Below, piece after piece: positions 1,073-47,450 of a stretch of 64,000 bases of DNA. The DNA lies in contig CAZHYS010000002.1 of the NCBI GenBank assembly GCA_964536975.1, forward strand, positions 12,288 through 76,287. Reading direction: 5' to 3'. The stretch's first letter is position 1. The number at the start of each line of letters is the position of its first letter. The position numbers and the translations under genes are program-made. The DNA comes from an uncultured Gammaproteobacteria bacterium (GTDB taxonomy: Bacteria > Patescibacteriota > Patescibacteriia > 2-01-FULL-39-33). The notes under the pieces were generated by a model. The model saw nothing but the letters and a program-made list of their open reading frames with translations. It did no database searches and had not been told where the DNA came from.

Positions 1073-1384
1073 TTGCCTGATTCAAGAAGAAATGTTAAAT
1101 TTTATTATATGGCAACAAATATCGGCCCCCAAAAAATAGAAGACCTTCTGATCGCCAAAATCAACAAGCGTCCTCCGGCTTATGAATGGCAGGATTTAGC
1201 TTTGCGAATAATCGGTGAACTGAATATTCCCGGGTTTAAGAAAGCCGCTGTTTTCAAGGTGTGCCGAGACAATCACAAGCAAATAATCCTCAAAGCGCTG
1301 AATGATACCAAGGAATTATGCGAATCAGGAGCTAGATGGCGTTACTTCTTCAAGATATTGGGTAAAAAAGATGATAAAAAATAG
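1073..1384 (+). CDS. Hypothetical small protein; the true start may be the internal Met at ~1109
   Basis: The ORF is divergent from def. I recognise no motif. Confidence 0.3.
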   Translation: MPDSRRNVKFYYMATNIGPQKIEDLLIAKINKRPPAYEWQDLALRIIGELNIPGFKKAAVFKVCRDNHKQIILKALNDTKELCESGARWRYFFKILGKKDDKK

Positions 1385-1388
1385 GGAC

Positions 1389-1417
1389 TTGACTTTTTTT
1401 CCTAAGTGTGCTAAAAT
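1389..1417 (+). promoter_or_regulatory. Sigma70-like promoter: TTGACT, 17-nt spacer, TAAAAT
   Basis: TTGACT lies at 1389-1394 and TAAAAT at 1412-1417. No protein gene follows on this strand. Confidence 0.5.
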
Positions 1418-1423
1418 TAATAT

Positions 1424-1744
1424 ACAAGGTAAATATCGTACCTTTCTATCCCATTGCGGTCGGCAGTCGGGATGCCGGCGCCAATCGCGGGCTTAATGGG
1501 CATAAGGAGTGGCTCGATTCCTCTTTCCCGTTTCTCCTTCCTTGGGGAGTTGAGCCACTCCAATTTAGTAGTTCCCCAAGGTGAGCCTCCTCTCGAACGG
1601 CCATTCGGGGGAGACTTCCTCGCTGAAGATGGCGGCTGTGTCTAGCAAGCTTCACAGCCGCCATCACATATGCCTTGTGCCGCTGGCAAAGCCAGCTCCC
1701 GAATGGGACGACGGAAACAGGCCCACGTCGTCCCTCTTTTTTTA
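1424..1744 (+). ncRNA. Candidate structured ncRNA of unknown class, ~320 nt and GC-rich
   Basis: The element is delimited by a strong promoter and two tandem intrinsic terminators. It contains a perfect 10-bp stem (1506-1515 pairing 1552-1561). No convincing ORF is present and it stands alone between def-side genes and a minus-strand gene. Confidence 0.4.
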
Positions 1745-1790
1745 CCAAAAAATCCTGTCCCGAGTCCTCGGGACAGGATTTTCTTCTATT
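1705..1790 (+). terminator. Two tandem rho-independent terminators
   Basis: The first is GGGACGACG...CGTCGTCCC followed by a T9 tract (1705-1744). The second is TCCTGTCCCGAG...TCGGGACAGGA followed by a T-rich tract (1751-1790). Confidence 0.55.
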
Positions 1791-1798
1791 TTAAAAAG

Positions 1799-2587
1799 CT
1801 ACAACTTAAATTGGCCAACCAGATAACCGACGCCAAACGGCGCTTCATAACTCAAGACTTCAAAATTGAAATTAATATTGTTTAATGCTCCGAGTAAAAT
1901 AAAAATCGATCTTAATCCGCATTCTGCCGCTCGTTCTGCTAAATCTTGATCAAAATTGACAACGCTTTGACTGTCGCCGTTTTTCAATAATTCAATCAGT
2001 TTCTCATCAAACTCTTTGCCCGCCGGATTAAAGGGTAGAGGAGCGTTCTCAGTCAAACAGTGAGAAAGATCGCCGGAAGCGATTATCGCCACCCGCTTAT
2101 CAGAGTTCATTATCGCTTCTTTGAGATTTTTGCCAAATTCAAAATGCGCCCGGCTATCCAAAAGCGAAAAGTAAATCGGAATTATCTTCACATCTTTGAG
2201 GTGTCGGGCGAGGTAAAACATCGGCACGCCGACTCCATGATCCAATTCTGATTCGGAAATGATATTGATGGGGGACTTGGCTTCAATTTTCTCTTTGTTG
2301 GAGGAAATTAGAACCGTATCGCCGTTAAGCTCCAATTGGGTGGAAAAATCTCCGAATGATTCAAAGTTTATCCGGTACTTATCGCAGATATTAATAGTGA
2401 AATAATCCGGATGGATTTCTCCATGCGGCGAAATAACTACCAAAATATCTGGCTTGGCAGCGTACAATTCGCGCTCCAGCCGCTCAAACGCCTCTTTGGT
2501 TTTGGCTATTTGTTTCAAATTATCCTTACCGATGGATGGTATTGCTATCGGCGGATGGGGCACGATCGCGGCAAATACGAGGGACAT
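1799..2587 (-). CDS. Class III extradiol dioxygenase / LigB-MEMO superfamily protein
   Basis: The N-terminus has AIVPHPP and ILVVISPHG motifs, similar to the LigB/DODA GHGSP...SAHW pattern. Confidence 0.55.
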   Translation of the reverse strand: MSLVFAAIVPHPPIAIPSIGKDNLKQIAKTKEAFERLERELYAAKPDILVVISPHGEIHPDYFTINICDKYRINFESFGDFSTQLELNGDTVLISSNKEKIEAKSPINIISESELDHGVGVPMFYLARHLKDVKIIPIYFSLLDSRAHFEFGKNLKEAIMNSDKRVAIIASGDLSHCLTENAPLPFNPAGKEFDEKLIELLKNGDSQSVVNFDQDLAERAAECGLRSIFILLGALNNINFNFEVLSYEAPFGVGYLVGQFKL

Positions 2588-29476: not shown

Positions 29477-29978
29477 AGACGAGGCATGCCTCGTCTCTAC
29501 AAAATAACATGAAAGGAGTTGGAATAATGAACCAAGGAGGCCATAAAATGTGGTGGGAATCGGCCGCATCCGAGCCGACCAAAAAACCGGCGACATTCCA
29601 TCACGCCGGTTAGTCCATAATAAGCGCGGGGAGGGAGCGACACGCGTCACCCCTTCCCCATCAACCACAAACTTCATTTTTAATTTTTATTATAGTGTAT
29701 TTTTCCTGCCGCACTGAAAAATTTGGAATAAGCGAAAGGCAAAATGTCCGCCGCGGCGGACAAAATTTTTATTGTTTGAGTCCGTCCGCCGCGGCGGACG
29801 GACAAGTTTAAAAATTTTGTTAGAATTTTGCCTGGAGTGCCAAATTTTTCAACTGCGGCGACTTTTTGCGCTACTTTTTCCTAGAAAAAGTGGCAAAAAA
29901 ATAATTTTGCAAACAACCAAAAATCCCGTCCCAAGTGTTCGGGACGGGATTTTTGGTTTATTAAGCTGAAAATTAAAA

Positions 29979-35116: not shown

Positions 35117-35524
35117 TCCAAACAAGCTGGATGACTGCCCGGGCTCAACCTAAAAAATTAAGCGCGGGAGGAAAGTCCGAACACCCTTTCCGAGCAATCG
35201 GAATGTCATGGCAATGGCTAACGGCCATCCGTTCCGCCGCGAGACGGAATGAGGACCAGTTCCACAGAGACAATACTATCCCGAATCTTTCGGGACAAAG
35301 GTGAAAAGTGTGAAGGTGTTTTAAATTGGGTCAGAGATATCTCCTCAACTTAAAGCTGCTTCACTCGGCCTCTGGCAACAGAGTGCCCGTGGTAAACTCT
35401 GCCTGGTGCAACCCCAAATACAGTCGGGGGCTTGAGCCGGCCAGTAATGACCGGCCCAGATAGATAGTCATCGCTTTGCTCTTATGGCAAAGAACAGAAT
35501 TCGGCTTACAAGCTTGTTGGGACG
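35117..35524 (+). ncRNA. rnpB: RNase P RNA, bacterial type A
   Basis: The P4 strands GGAAAGTCCGAAC and ACAGAATTCGGCTTA are present. The segments GTGCCCGTGGTAAACTCTGCC and GCTTGAGCCGGCC align to E. coli M1 RNA. The P1 ends are complementary and a terminator follows at 35524-35572. Confidence 0.85.
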
Positions 35525-39794: not shown

Positions 39795-40272
39795 AAATAA
39801 AAGCTGATAATACTAAACTATTATATCAGCCAAGAGAGAGAAAATCAAGAACACCGGGGTTGAGGGGTAGTAATTAGTAATCGATAATAATCGTGGAGAC
39901 GCGATAAGCTCGCGTCTAAAAGTAATCAGTAACGAGTAATCGGTAACGGAACTCGGCAGACAGTGTCATCGCGAGTCCGCCGTGGCGGACGTGGCGATCC
40001 CATATTTATATTGTCATCCCGACTGAGGACGCCCCAAGCGGACGAGTGGAGGGATCCCCTGCCTACCGGCAGGCAGGCTCCACTTGTCTGCTTGAGGCAC
40101 CTGTCCGCATTGGGTGGAGACTCGCAATGACAACAGTGACGGATTTAAAAATAAAAATCAAAAAAAATCACCCCCGCAATCGCTACAAAAAAGCAATTGC
40201 GGGGGCTAATGGGCTAAGGATCCAAAGGCAAAAAAATCCAAAGAACCTTTGCCTGCCTGCTGGCAGGCAAGT

Positions 40273-41228: not shown

Positions 41229-41440
41229 GTCATCCCGACTGAAGCGATCCGCCTCGGGCGGAGAGCGAAATGGAGGGATCCCTCCATGCGTTCATCCCGA
41301 GTACTCGGGACTCACTTAGTCGGGATGACACTATAATCAATATCTTTTGGCTATGGCCGCTTTTTTTACCAATTATTGTTTCAAGGTACTTATATATAAT
41401 TATAACACGCCTTAAATGTTTTGTCAATGGCAACCCAATA
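41229..41440. mobile_element. MITE-like palindromic element (R5) plus a shared ~100-bp tail
   Basis: It has terminal inverted repeats GTCATCCCGAC...GTCGGGATGAC and a near-copy at 47204-47450. Confidence 0.5.
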
Positions 41441-47203: not shown

Positions 47204-47450
47204 TCATCCCGACTAAGTGAAGCCCTCCCGTCCCGAGTGCCCGGGACGGGAGGGACGAACGCATGGAGGGATCCCTCCACGGAGTTTACCCTGAGCGTAG
47301 TCGAAGGGGTCGGGATGACACGGGAGGACTTTATCAAGATAATATTTCAGTATCTTTTGGCTATGGCCGTTTTTTTGCCAATAATTGCTTGTAAGGTACT
47401 AATATATAATTATAGCATATCTAAAATATTTTGTCAATAGTTAAATCAGC
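47204..47450. mobile_element. Second copy of the MITE-like R5 element with an inverted core
   Basis: It has the same terminal repeats and tail as 41229-41440. The central segment is in the opposite orientation. Confidence 0.5.

What the first reader, a model, noticed from the sequence alone, without database searches (positions are those of the whole stretch)
1389..1790. Stand-alone ~320-nt structured RNA candidate with a near-consensus promoter and double terminator
A TTGACT-17-TAAAAT promoter and two consecutive intrinsic terminators delimit a GC-rich, ORF-poor transcript between def and a minus-strand gene. I could not match it to tmRNA (no tag frame or T-arm), RNase P (located elsewhere) or the SRP RNA domain IV consensus, so its class is open. 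The expected tmRNA and SRP RNA genes are not otherwise visible in this window.
Basis: partly seen in the sequence, partly recalled or inferred. Interest (0 to 1): 0.6.

Follow-up and report, generated by a model that had tools for sequence, protein, structure and literature searches.

The report
Lineage-restricted structured small RNA gene
This is a real, separately transcribed, highly folded non-coding RNA gene of about 320 nt in an uncultured Patescibacteria (CPR) bacterium; it matches no described RNA family, is found only in the three closest lineages available, and its function is unknown.

Summary
Window 1389-1417 carries a TTGACT-17-TAAAAT promoter with a TG extension. It is followed by a G+C-rich stretch (0.53-0.61, against about 0.40 in the flanks) that folds far better than shuffles (z = -7.3). 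This ends in a hairpin plus U-run at 1705-1743.

The same unit sits at the same genomic slot, in the same orientation, in two related lineages:
- type A: L068
- type B: L069, L073-L080, L101, L120

All three share these features:
- a TTGAC-17-TAWWAT promoter with TG
- a conserved 5' hairpin, P1, with a GAUG loop
- a short closing helix, P0
- several G+C-rich hairpins
- a terminator whose stem covaries

Of 56 aligned pairs, 17 show changes on both sides.

No reading frame is conserved. Rfam 15 and ARAGORN find nothing, so it is not tmRNA, SRP RNA, 6S RNA, RNase P RNA or a riboswitch. More distant relatives (neighbouring LigB-like protein 73% identical or less) have no such RNA at this slot.

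Verdict: a new, narrowly distributed, fast-evolving bacterial small RNA. It probably acts in trans, but the mechanism is not established. Interest is moderate to low.

The parts
1389..1417 (+). Sigma-70-type promoter: -35 TTGACT (1389-1394), 17-nt spacer, TG (1409-1410), -10 TAAAAT (1412-1417). The predicted transcription start is near 1424.
   Evidence: Scan (10/12 plus TG). The equivalent TTGACA-17-TATTAT promoter with TG scores 11/12 in L073 and L068. In L078 an IS481 element lies directly upstream of the -35 and leaves the promoter intact.
1424..1743 (+). Predicted primary transcript of about 320 nt. The start is inferred from the -10 position and the 3' end from the U-run.
   Evidence: MFE z = -7.3. 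G+C is 0.53-0.61. A covariance model built only from relatives hits 1454-1742 on the + strand at 18.2 bits, E about 9e-5. This is the only full-length hit in the 64 kb window.
1426..1444 (+). A+U-rich 5' hairpin (AAGGUA/UACCUU). It is specific to the window lineage; types A and B start about 30 nt closer to P1.
   Evidence: alignment.
1457..1487 (+). P1, the conserved 5' hairpin. Helices: CGGU/AUCG, GGC/GCC (1462-1464 with 1480-1482) and GUCGG/CCGGC (1466-1470 with 1475-1479). The loop is GAUG (1471-1474). The 3' flank AAU is invariant.
   Evidence: Fold. The pattern GGTNNNCNGNCGRGATGNCGNNGNNAAT occurs once in the window. Three pairs show compensatory changes among the three lineages, and there is a conserved G-U pair.
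1488..1491 (+). 5' strand of P0 (CGGG). This short helix closes the central multi-hairpin domain; its partner is 1698-1701 (CCCG).
   Evidence: RNAalifold consensus of types A and B. The model alignment places the window's CGG/CCG here, with one C-G versus G-C exchange. The helix is weak (3-6 bp). In the window it competes with the 9-bp pairing 1601-1609/1698-1706.
1506..1561 (+). Long hairpin S1. The perfect 10-bp core is GGAGUGGCUC (1506-1515) with GAGCCACUCC (1552-1561). It extends to 18 bp with four G-U pairs. The pyrimidine-rich loop is UUUCCCGUUUCUCCUUCCUU.
   Evidence: (-33.7 kcal/mol, z = -5.1). The G-U pairs fit the + strand only.
1540..1581 (+). S2: CCUUGGGGA (1540-1548) pairs with UCCCCAAGG (1573-1581). 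It can form an H-type pseudoknot with the 10-bp core of S1. By sequence (CUUGG...CCAAG) it is the likely counterpart of helix P2 in type B.
   Evidence: Perfect 9-bp inverted repeat. The comparison with type B P2, CUUGGAAGGGA/UCCCUUCCAAG, is my inference and is not tested by covariation.
1590..1611 (+). Hairpin CUCUCGAA/UUCGGGGG (8 bp, two G-U pairs). It is preceded by the unpaired sequence GAGCCUCCU.
1628..1665 (+). Perfect 13-bp hairpin GAUGGCGGCUGUG/CACAGCCGCCAUC with a 12-nt loop. By position it corresponds to P3.
1682..1696 (+). Hairpin GCUGGC-AAA-GCCAGC. By position and sequence it is the likely counterpart of P4 (type A has GCCUGGCG/CGCCAGG). It is preceded by AUGCCUU, which is shared with type B.
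   Evidence: (shared 7-mer). The correspondence is my inference.
1698..1701 (+). 3' strand of P0 (CCCG), lying directly before the terminator.
1705..1743 (+). Intrinsic terminator T1 of the RNA: a 9-bp G+C-rich stem, a 12-nt loop and UCUUUUUUU.
   Evidence: The homologous terminators are called in L073 and L068. The stem keeps the motif GGG.CGAC/GUCG.CCC, with three compensated pairs.
1749..1782 (.). Hairpin T2 (16 bp), a bidirectional terminator. It is primarily the terminator of the convergent LigB-like gene and a back-up stop for the RNA.
   Evidence: -24.8 kcal/mol on the + strand, -27.1 on the - strand, U-runs on both sides. In L068 the equivalent hairpin is called as a terminator on the LigB strand only.
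1109..1384 (+). Upstream neighbour: a conserved 91-aa protein of unknown function. It has no terminator of its own before the RNA promoter, so its mRNA probably reads into the RNA and ends at T1.
   Evidence: Relatives occur in 58 genomes, most of which lack the RNA.
1799..2587 (-). Downstream convergent neighbour: AmmeMemoRadiSam system protein B (LigB/Memo fold).
   Evidence: TIGR04336, 43.7 bits against a cutoff of 26.

Best explanation
Window 1389-1743 is an independent gene for a structured non-coding RNA, about 320 nt here and about 190-240 nt in the two related lineages.

How it is made and folded:
- A strong extended -10 promoter drives it.
- The transcript folds into a conserved 5' hairpin (P1, GAUG loop).
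- P1 is followed by a domain of several G+C-rich hairpins, closed by a short helix (P0).
- Transcription stops at its own intrinsic terminator (T1).
- The next hairpin (T2) terminates the convergent AmmeMemoRadiSam-B gene.

Origin: the gene was gained in a small clade of ABY1-type Patescibacteria, at a variable intergenic slot, and it evolves fast outside P1 and T1.

What is shown and what is inferred:
- Shown: the transcription signals, the structure, its conservation with compensatory changes, and the absence of a conserved reading frame.
- Inferred: that it is made as a discrete abundant RNA.
- Inferred with low certainty: that it works in trans as a regulatory RNA, through its invariant elements (the P1 apical loop with its AAU flank, and the pyrimidine-rich unpaired linkers), which would contact another RNA or a protein.

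My confidence that it is a real RNA gene is about 0.8. My confidence in the trans-acting mechanism is about 0.35. The confidence of 0.6 given for this explanation is a compromise between those two figures.
For: Transcription signals: the promoter is and is conserved at 11/12 plus TG in L073 and L068.

Folding: z = -7.3, -5.8 and -6.3 for the three types. G+C is raised against an A+T-rich genome.

Synteny: the unit lies in the same slot and the same orientation in L068 and in L069/L073-L080.

Independent detection: a covariance model built from types A and B alone finds window 1454-1742 on the + strand as the only full-length hit in 64 kb.

Covariation: 95% of cells are paired, against 39-50% when partners are slid. 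17 of 56 pairs change on both sides, against 4.4 +/- 1.7 in shuffles. A G-U pair is conserved in all sequences, and S1 contains G-U pairs; both fit the + strand only.

Not coding: no conserved frame exists, and types A and B have stops in all frames.

Selection:
- An IS481 insertion in L078-L080 removed the upstream gene but left the promoter and RNA intact.
- Strains with 22 SNPs in the neighbouring 276-nt gene have one SNP in the 414-nt RNA interval.

Not a known family.
Against: - There are no expression data.
- Only three independent lineages are known, so the covariation statistics are weak, and the alignment used for counting was fitted to the model.
- The window's model score (18.2 bits) is no higher than that of chance P1-pattern matches in G+C-rich DNA (up to 17.9 bits). 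Homology therefore rests on synteny, promoter, P1 and terminator taken together.
- The central part of the window RNA cannot be aligned confidently to types A and B.
- No target was found. Complementarity to the start regions of neighbouring genes is not above shuffles.
- The idea that CU-rich linkers mask Shine-Dalgarno sites is weakened, because only 2 of 42 long ORFs in the window have GGAG or GAGG upstream.
- Long, perfect G+C-rich stems are also typical of selfish or purely terminator-like DNA.
Confidence: 0.6

Rival explanations
1. It is a cis-acting antisense or interference element for the convergent AmmeMemoRadiSam operon. Transcription from the strong promoter runs head-on toward the LigB-like gene. 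Leaky termination at T1 would give antisense RNA or polymerase collisions that tune that operon.
For: The RNA is always convergent with the LigB-like gene and directly abuts its 3' end. It stays linked to that side when the other neighbour is replaced by an IS element. In the window, the 9-bp pairing 1601-1609/1698-1706 overlaps the first 2 nt of the T1 stem.
Against: - T1 is a strong, conserved terminator.
- In the window T2 is a second stop on the + strand.
- The competing helix removes only 2 bp of T1.
- Nothing resembling a ligand-sensing aptamer is known for this RNA.
- Relatives run the same operon without the RNA.
Confidence: 0.1
2. It is a structured mRNA for a small protein. The invariant AUG in the P1 loop (1472-1474) would start a peptide of 57 aa in the window, 24 aa in type A and 23 aa in type B.
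For: - The AUG is invariant and exposed in a loop.
- In types A and B the frame ends at a UAA inside the conserved AAAGCUCYUUAAG motif.
- Three of four point differences among type B variants are synonymous in that frame. This is my reading of the sequences; I estimate p at about 0.06.
- The genome rarely uses Shine-Dalgarno sites, so the lack of one is not an objection.
Against: - The peptides are unrelated beyond residues dictated by the P1 stem.
- Lengths differ from 23 to 57 aa.
- The common type B2 variant carries a 10-nt insertion that shifts the frame.
- Substitutions preserve base pairing rather than amino acids.
- There are no relatives in 5.8 billion proteins for the ORFs tested and no Pfam match.
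Confidence: 0.08
3. It has no function of its own. It would be a remnant of inserted foreign or selfish DNA, or an expanded terminator region between convergent genes, with a promoter-like sequence that arose by chance.
For: - The slot is a hotspot. Relatives carry unrelated small genes or IS elements there, or nothing at all.
- The distribution is very narrow.
- The stems are perfect and long.
- No homologue was found in phage, plasmid, viral or metagenome searches.
Against: - A near-consensus promoter with identical 17-nt spacing and a TG extension is kept in three lineages whose RNA bodies have diverged almost beyond alignment.
- Compensatory changes are present.
- Polymorphism is very low within the species compared with the adjacent gene.
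- The element is single copy in the window, without terminal inverted repeats.
Confidence: 0.1
4. It is a very divergent form of a universal RNA (6S RNA, SRP RNA or tmRNA) that Rfam models fail to recognise in Patescibacteria.
For: None of these RNAs is found in the 64 kb window. The RNA has a strong promoter, as housekeeping RNAs do. Type B is about 190 nt, which is similar in size to 6S RNA.
Against: - No Rfam match appears even at E <= 10 or for types A and B.
- ARAGORN finds no tRNA-like domain or tag frame.
- The 5' and 3' ends do not pair, so there is no 6S-type rod with a central bubble.
- No SRP helix-8 GNRA loop or symmetric-loop motif is visible.
- Length varies from 190 to 320 nt among close relatives.
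- The RNA is absent from the syntenic site in relatives, with nothing similar within 3 kb.
Confidence: 0.04

Closest known systems
Trans-encoded bacterial small RNAs with their own promoter and intrinsic terminator (for example RNAIII, RsaE/RoxS in Firmicutes and Spot 42 in enterobacteria); general class, from my own knowledge
   Same: It is a stand-alone unit in an intergenic region, with a sigma-70 promoter, several hairpins, C/U-rich unpaired stretches and a Rho-independent terminator. It is conserved only in a narrow lineage, and the best-conserved parts are one hairpin and the terminator.
   Different: No sequence or model similarity to any of them. No target or chaperone is known. The host rarely uses Shine-Dalgarno sites, so the usual mode of masking the ribosome-binding site is doubtful. 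At about 320 nt it is larger and more G+C-rich and structured than most base-pairing sRNAs.
sRNAs derived from the 3' end of an mRNA with an internal promoter (the type described for enterobacterial 3'UTR sRNAs; from my own knowledge)
   Same: The promoter starts 5 nt after the stop codon of the 91-aa gene. There is no terminator in between, so the mRNA and the RNA share terminator T1.
   Different: The RNA persists when the 91-aa gene is displaced by an IS481 element. Most genomes with the 91-aa gene lack the RNA.
Large structured non-coding RNAs found as G+C-rich intergenic regions in A+T-rich genomes (candidates of the raiA, OLE and HEARO kind in Rfam)
   Same: It shows the same diagnostic signature: a long intergenic region, raised G+C, strong predicted structure and compensatory changes.
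   Different: None of those families matches. The distribution here is far narrower, and conservation of unpaired nucleotides is low.
TIGR stem-loop guide arrays of Patescibacteria and phages (PMC12045711)
   Same: It occurs in a related host group (Buchananbacteria are named in that paper) and consists of a run of variable palindromic hairpins.
   Different: No adjacent Nop-domain Tas gene is present; the neighbours are a 91-aa protein and the LigB-like protein. There is no repeated unit of fixed length. No box C (RUGAUGA) is seen in the sequence.

Membership tests
tmRNA (RF00023 and permuted forms) | A tRNA-like domain (acceptor stem, T-arm, CCA end) plus a tag reading frame | tested here: not met
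   ARAGORN finds no tmRNA or tRNA in the window. There is no Rfam match even at E <= 10.
SRP RNA (RF00169, RF01854) | Helix 8 with a GNRA tetraloop and conserved symmetric and asymmetric loops | tested here: not met
   No SRP model matches at E <= 10 in 1300-1900, or at E <= 0.1 in types A and B. No hairpin in the fold has the motif.
6S RNA (RF00013) | The 5' and 3' ends pair into a long rod with a large central bubble; length about 180-200 nt | tested here: not met
   No Rfam match. The consensus fold is a 5' hairpin plus a multi-branch domain plus a terminator, and the ends are unpaired.
RNase P RNA | A match to the bacterial class A or B model | tested here: not met
   The genuine RNase P RNA is at 35119-35524 (178.8 bits). 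Nothing matches in 1300-1900.
Riboswitch or T-box leader | A known aptamer fold, followed by an expression platform that controls a downstream gene on the same strand | tested here: not met
   No Rfam aptamer matches. The next gene is convergent, so there is no downstream gene on the + strand.
Stand-alone bacterial sRNA gene (generic kind) | Its own promoter and Rho-independent terminator in an intergenic region | tested here: met
Stand-alone bacterial sRNA gene (generic kind) | Secondary structure conserved through compensatory substitutions, with no conserved reading frame | tested here: met
   (17 of 56 pairs). The caveat is that only three lineages are known.
Stand-alone bacterial sRNA gene (generic kind) | A discrete transcript is detected | not testable with these tools
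   No expression data are available.
TIGR guide array | An adjacent Tas (Nop-domain) gene, and tandem units with box C/D motifs flanking two 8-12-nt spacers (PMC12045711) | tested here: not met
   The neighbours have no Nop domain. There are no tandem units.
MITE or other repeated mobile element | Multiple copies, terminal inverted repeats and a target-site duplication | tested here: not met
   The element is single copy in the window; only terminator-like hairpins recur. There are no terminal inverted repeats. The only flanking direct repeat is a T-run.

The most novel reading that the evidence does not exclude
The RNA could be the founding example of a Patescibacteria-specific class of abundant structured RNAs. 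Its invariant hairpin displays an AUG (the RGAUG loop plus AAU). In a host that initiates translation largely without Shine-Dalgarno pairing, that hairpin might act as a decoy or docking site for the initiating 30S subunit, initiator tRNA or an initiation factor, or it might nucleate a new ribonucleoprotein. It would then not be an ordinary base-pairing sRNA.
Probability: 0.07. Interest if true: 0.65.

Novelty: new member of a known kind. Interest (0 to 1): 0.35.

Why it matters
Almost nothing is known about regulatory or structural RNAs in Patescibacteria (CPR); my two literature searches returned no study of such RNAs. These organisms have tiny genomes with very short intergenic regions, so a 414-nt spacer devoted to a strongly promoted, structure-conserving RNA is a deliberate investment. 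This finding gives a concrete candidate to test, with a promoter, defined ends, a conserved hairpin and three natural variants. It can be used in metatranscriptome mapping and as a seed for a covariance model. Its narrow distribution and unknown function limit its wider importance.

Tried and rejected
Searches for known families and for more homologues:
1. Rfam at gathering threshold on the whole window, and at E <= 10 on 1300-1900, gave only terminator-like chance hits. Types A and B gave nothing.
2. ARAGORN found no tRNA or tmRNA.
3. blastn and nhmmer of the region against 58 syntenic loci from GTDB genomes gave no hit. The region is absent at that slot in those genomes.
4. I used the spurious 100-aa minus-strand ORF as a degenerate DNA probe against metagenome and viral contigs and the 5.8-billion-protein set. 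Nothing was found. The 49-aa ORF called in L077 found only itself.
5. blastn against phages and plasmids gave nothing meaningful.
6. A P1 pattern scan of metagenome contigs recovered only type B again (L101, L120). The viral scan gave four chance hits.
7. Lineages whose LigB-like protein is 71-73% identical (P0004, P0005, P0006) have no RNA.

Hypotheses tested and dropped:
8. Coding hypothesis: six-frame comparison among the three types found no conserved frame.
9. Anti-Shine-Dalgarno seed hypothesis: the CUCCUU and CCUCC motifs are present, but the shared 10-mer between the window and type A is not significant (38 of 500 shuffles), and the genome rarely uses SD sites (2 of 42).
10. Target search against the start regions of neighbouring genes in all three lineages showed no enrichment (all |z| < 1.6).
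11. TIGR array, MITE and DGR template readings were rejected. There is no Tas or reverse transcriptase gene next to the RNA and no second copy or variable repeat in the window.
12. The weak model hit in L017 (5670-5876, minus strand) is a different promoter-plus-terminator unit, not a family member.

Full report
**What is in the sequence**

The stop codon of a 91-aa gene on the + strand lies at 1382-1384. Five bases later comes TTGACT (1389-1394), then a 17-nt spacer ending in TG-C, then TAAAAT (1412-1417). From about 1424 to 1743 the DNA is G+C-rich: 0.53-0.61, against 0.32-0.45 on either side.

As RNA the + strand folds at -147 kcal/mol, z = -7.3 against dinucleotide shuffles. The - strand gives z = -5.4.

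The region ends in a 9-bp G+C-rich hairpin (1705-1734) followed by UCUUUUUUU. This hairpin folds at -17.6 kcal/mol, z = -4.1. The scanner misses it only because its loop is 12 nt.

A second, 16-bp hairpin lies at 1749-1782 and has U-runs on both strands. The convergent gene at 1799-2587 is an AmmeMemoRadiSam system protein B with a LigB/Memo fold. One correction is that the upstream neighbour is the 91-aa gene, not def.

**It is not a known RNA or a degraded gene**

- Rfam 15 finds only RNase P RNA in the window, at 35119-35524.
- In permissive mode the region gives only chance matches to its terminator hairpins.
- ARAGORN finds no tRNA or tmRNA.
- The mechanical ORFs that cross the region have no Pfam match and no relative among 5.8 billion proteins.

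**Comparative evidence**

The arrangement def, 91-aa gene, LigB-like gene is conserved in 58 Patescibacteria genomes; the named ones are Buchananbacteria, Falkowbacteria and Moranbacteria. None of these contains the region.

In L002 the two convergent genes actually overlap at their stops. Other genomes carry unrelated small genes or an IS element at that spot. The 414 bp between 1385 and 1798 is therefore a lineage-specific addition at a variable slot.

I then fetched the contigs that encode the closest LigB-like proteins.
- Identical protein: the same species, with the same 414-bp interval.
- 77% identity (L068, 'type A') and 78% identity (L069, L073-L080, 'type B'): intervals of 385 and about 290 bp. 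These align to the window at the promoter, at a 5' hairpin and at the terminator, but hardly in between.
- 71-73% identity: no such interval.

**Shared architecture**

All three types have the following features:
- A TTGAC(A/T)-17-TAWWAT promoter with TG; it scores 11/12 in L073 and L068.
- Hairpin P1, which fits GGTNNNCNGNCGRGATGNCGNNGNNAAT, with a GAUG loop.
- A short helix P0 (GGG.../...CCC) that encloses the remaining hairpins.
- A long G+C-rich hairpin P2, with further hairpins P3 and P4.
- A terminator with the motif GGG.CGAC/GUCG.CCC plus a U-run.

The RNAalifold consensus of types A and B contains 56 pairs, 11 of them with compensatory changes.

A covariance model built from types A and B alone finds window 1454-1742 on the + strand. 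This is a full-length match at 18.2 bits, E about 9e-5, and is the only meaningful hit in 64 kb.

On the model-based alignment of six distinct sequences:
- 95% of cells are paired, against 39-50% when partners are slid.
- 17 of 56 pairs show changes on both sides, against 4.4 +/- 1.7 in shuffles.
- A G-U pair in P1 is kept in all sequences, which fits the + strand only.

The folds of types A and B are also far better than shuffles, at z = -5.8 and -6.3.

Three caveats apply:
- There are only three independent lineages.
- The alignment used for counting was fitted to the model.
- Chance matches to the P1 pattern in G+C-rich DNA reach 17.9 bits, so homology rests on the combination of synteny, orientation, promoter, P1 and terminator.

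**Signs of selection**

- In L078-L080 an IS481-family element (rve domain) sits immediately upstream of the -35 element and replaces the 91-aa gene. The promoter and RNA remain intact. The RNA is therefore a unit of its own, linked to the LigB side.
- Within the window's species, strains that differ at 22 positions in the 276-nt 91-aa gene differ at one position (1449) in the 414-bp interval.

**The second terminator**

In types A and B the second hairpin has its U-run only on the strand of the LigB-like gene. In L068 the scanner calls it on that strand. In the window it is bidirectional.

**Anatomy in the window**

| Element | Coordinates | Note |
|---|---|---|
| Lineage-specific 5' hairpin | 1426-1444 | |
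| P1 | 1457-1487 | |
| P0 | 1488-1491 with 1698-1701 | |
| S1 | 1506-1515 with 1552-1561 | extendable to 18 bp with four G-U pairs |
| S2 | 1540-1548 with 1573-1581 | |
| Hairpin | 1590-1611 | |
| Perfect 13-bp hairpin | 1628-1665 | |
| Hairpin | 1682-1696 | |
| T1 | 1705-1743 | |

S2 can form an H-type pseudoknot with S1. By its CUUGG...CCAAG ends it is probably the true counterpart of type B helix P2. A 9-bp pairing, 1601-1609 with 1698-1706, competes with P0.

The motifs AGC(C)UCCU after P2 and AUGCCUU before P4 recur in the same order in the other types. This suggests the three types are collinear over their whole length. That is my inference and has not been tested statistically.

**Function**

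I tested several ideas.

*Coding.* The invariant AUG in the P1 loop opens frames of 57 aa (window), 24 aa (type A), 23 aa (type B1) and 30 aa (type B2). Three of four point differences among type B variants are synonymous in that frame. Against this, the peptides are unrelated, a common variant has a frameshifting 10-nt insertion, and substitutions follow base pairing rather than codons. I rate this reading at about 0.08.

*Masking of Shine-Dalgarno sites by the CU-rich linkers.* The motifs CUCCUU and CCUCC are present. However, the shared 10-mer is not significant, and only 2 of 42 long ORFs in the window have GGAG or GAGG upstream.

*Regulation of neighbouring genes by pairing to their start regions.* There is no enrichment in any of the three lineages.

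*Divergent 6S, SRP or tmRNA.* The fold and the model searches speak against this.

*TIGR guide array.* Such arrays are known in Buchananbacteria (PMC12045711). Here there is no Tas gene, no box C/D motif and no tandem unit.

What remains is a strongly promoted, terminator-bounded, structure-conserving RNA. Its invariant parts are the P1 hairpin and the terminator. The most economical reading is a trans-acting regulatory RNA, with P1 as the likely contact for a partner RNA or protein. A cis role against the convergent operon by read-through is the main alternative. Neither is demonstrated.

**Novelty and score**

This is a new family, absent from Rfam 15 and not found in the literature searches. 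Its kind, a lineage-specific bacterial small RNA gene, is familiar. It is of some interest because regulatory RNAs of Patescibacteria are essentially uncharted and the evidence for this one is clean. Its distribution is very narrow and its mechanism is unknown. Interest: 0.35.

Noticed in passing
window 35119-35524 (+): Bacterial class A RNase P RNA, a full-length match (178.8 bits, E = 4.5e-56). It has long insertions relative to the model.
   Followed up: no
window 1385-1798 slot, compared with L001, L002, L004, L013, L015, L045, L047, L078: The spot between the 91-aa gene and the LigB-like gene is a hotspot for gene gain. Relatives carry nothing there (the stops overlap in L002), or unrelated small ORFs (L004, L015, L045, L047), or an IS481/rve transposase (L001, L078).
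   Followed up: partly
window 1109-1384 (+): The 91-aa protein has no Pfam or NCBIfam match but is conserved next to def in at least 58 Patescibacteria genomes. Within the species it is far more polymorphic than its neighbours: up to 22 SNPs in 276 nt, against 0-1 in the LigB-like gene and 1 in the RNA interval.
   Followed up: partly
window ~2594-2740, contig ends at 2705: Nine independent Logan assemblies of this species all break at window position 2705, in the intergenic region upstream of the LigB-like gene. That region contains a 12-bp inverted repeat (GTTTATAAAGTC / GACTTTATAAAC). This suggests strain-variable or repeated sequence beyond that point.
   Followed up: no
window ~39800-40270 (- strand as read): A second G+C-rich, hairpin-dense intergenic stretch. 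It includes motifs of the GTCATTGCGAG... and ...GGGATGAC type and a low-complexity run (CCGTTACCGATTACTCGTTACTGATTAC). A similar run occurs in L045. It may be a repeat element or another RNA. There is no Rfam match.
   Followed up: no
L017 5670-5876 (-): In a Buchananbacteria contig, an intergenic unit of about 200 nt with a TG-extended -10 (TAGAAT) and a strong terminator (GGGGCCGTC...GGCGGCCCC plus a T-run). It gave a weak, probably terminator-driven hit to the model (12.1 bits) and has no Rfam match. It may be a different small RNA.
   Followed up: partly
window, all long ORFs: Only 2 of 42 ORFs of at least 150 aa have GGAG or GAGG within 20 nt upstream of the first ATG. This suggests largely Shine-Dalgarno-independent initiation in this organism. 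Start assignment was crude.
   Followed up: partly
window 29919-29953, 47226-47251, 41295-41311: Hairpins similar in sequence to terminator T2 (AAAATCCTGTCCC...GGGACAGGATTTT; 81-94% identity over 17-35 nt) recur elsewhere in the window. This may be a shared terminator motif.
   Followed up: no
L073-L075, L101, L120 (type B2), just 3' of P1: A 10-nt insertion creates GGGGUCAUCUGUCCC followed by UCCUUUUU. The scanner calls this a terminator inside the RNA, so it may be an early stop or attenuator in that variant.
   Followed up: no
window 1393-1405 and 1736-1748: A 13-nt T-rich direct repeat (CTTTTTTTCCTAA / CTTTTTTTACCAA, 85% identical) brackets the RNA body, from the promoter spacer to the terminator tail. 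It is probably low-complexity coincidence, but could be a trace of the insertion event.
   Followed up: no
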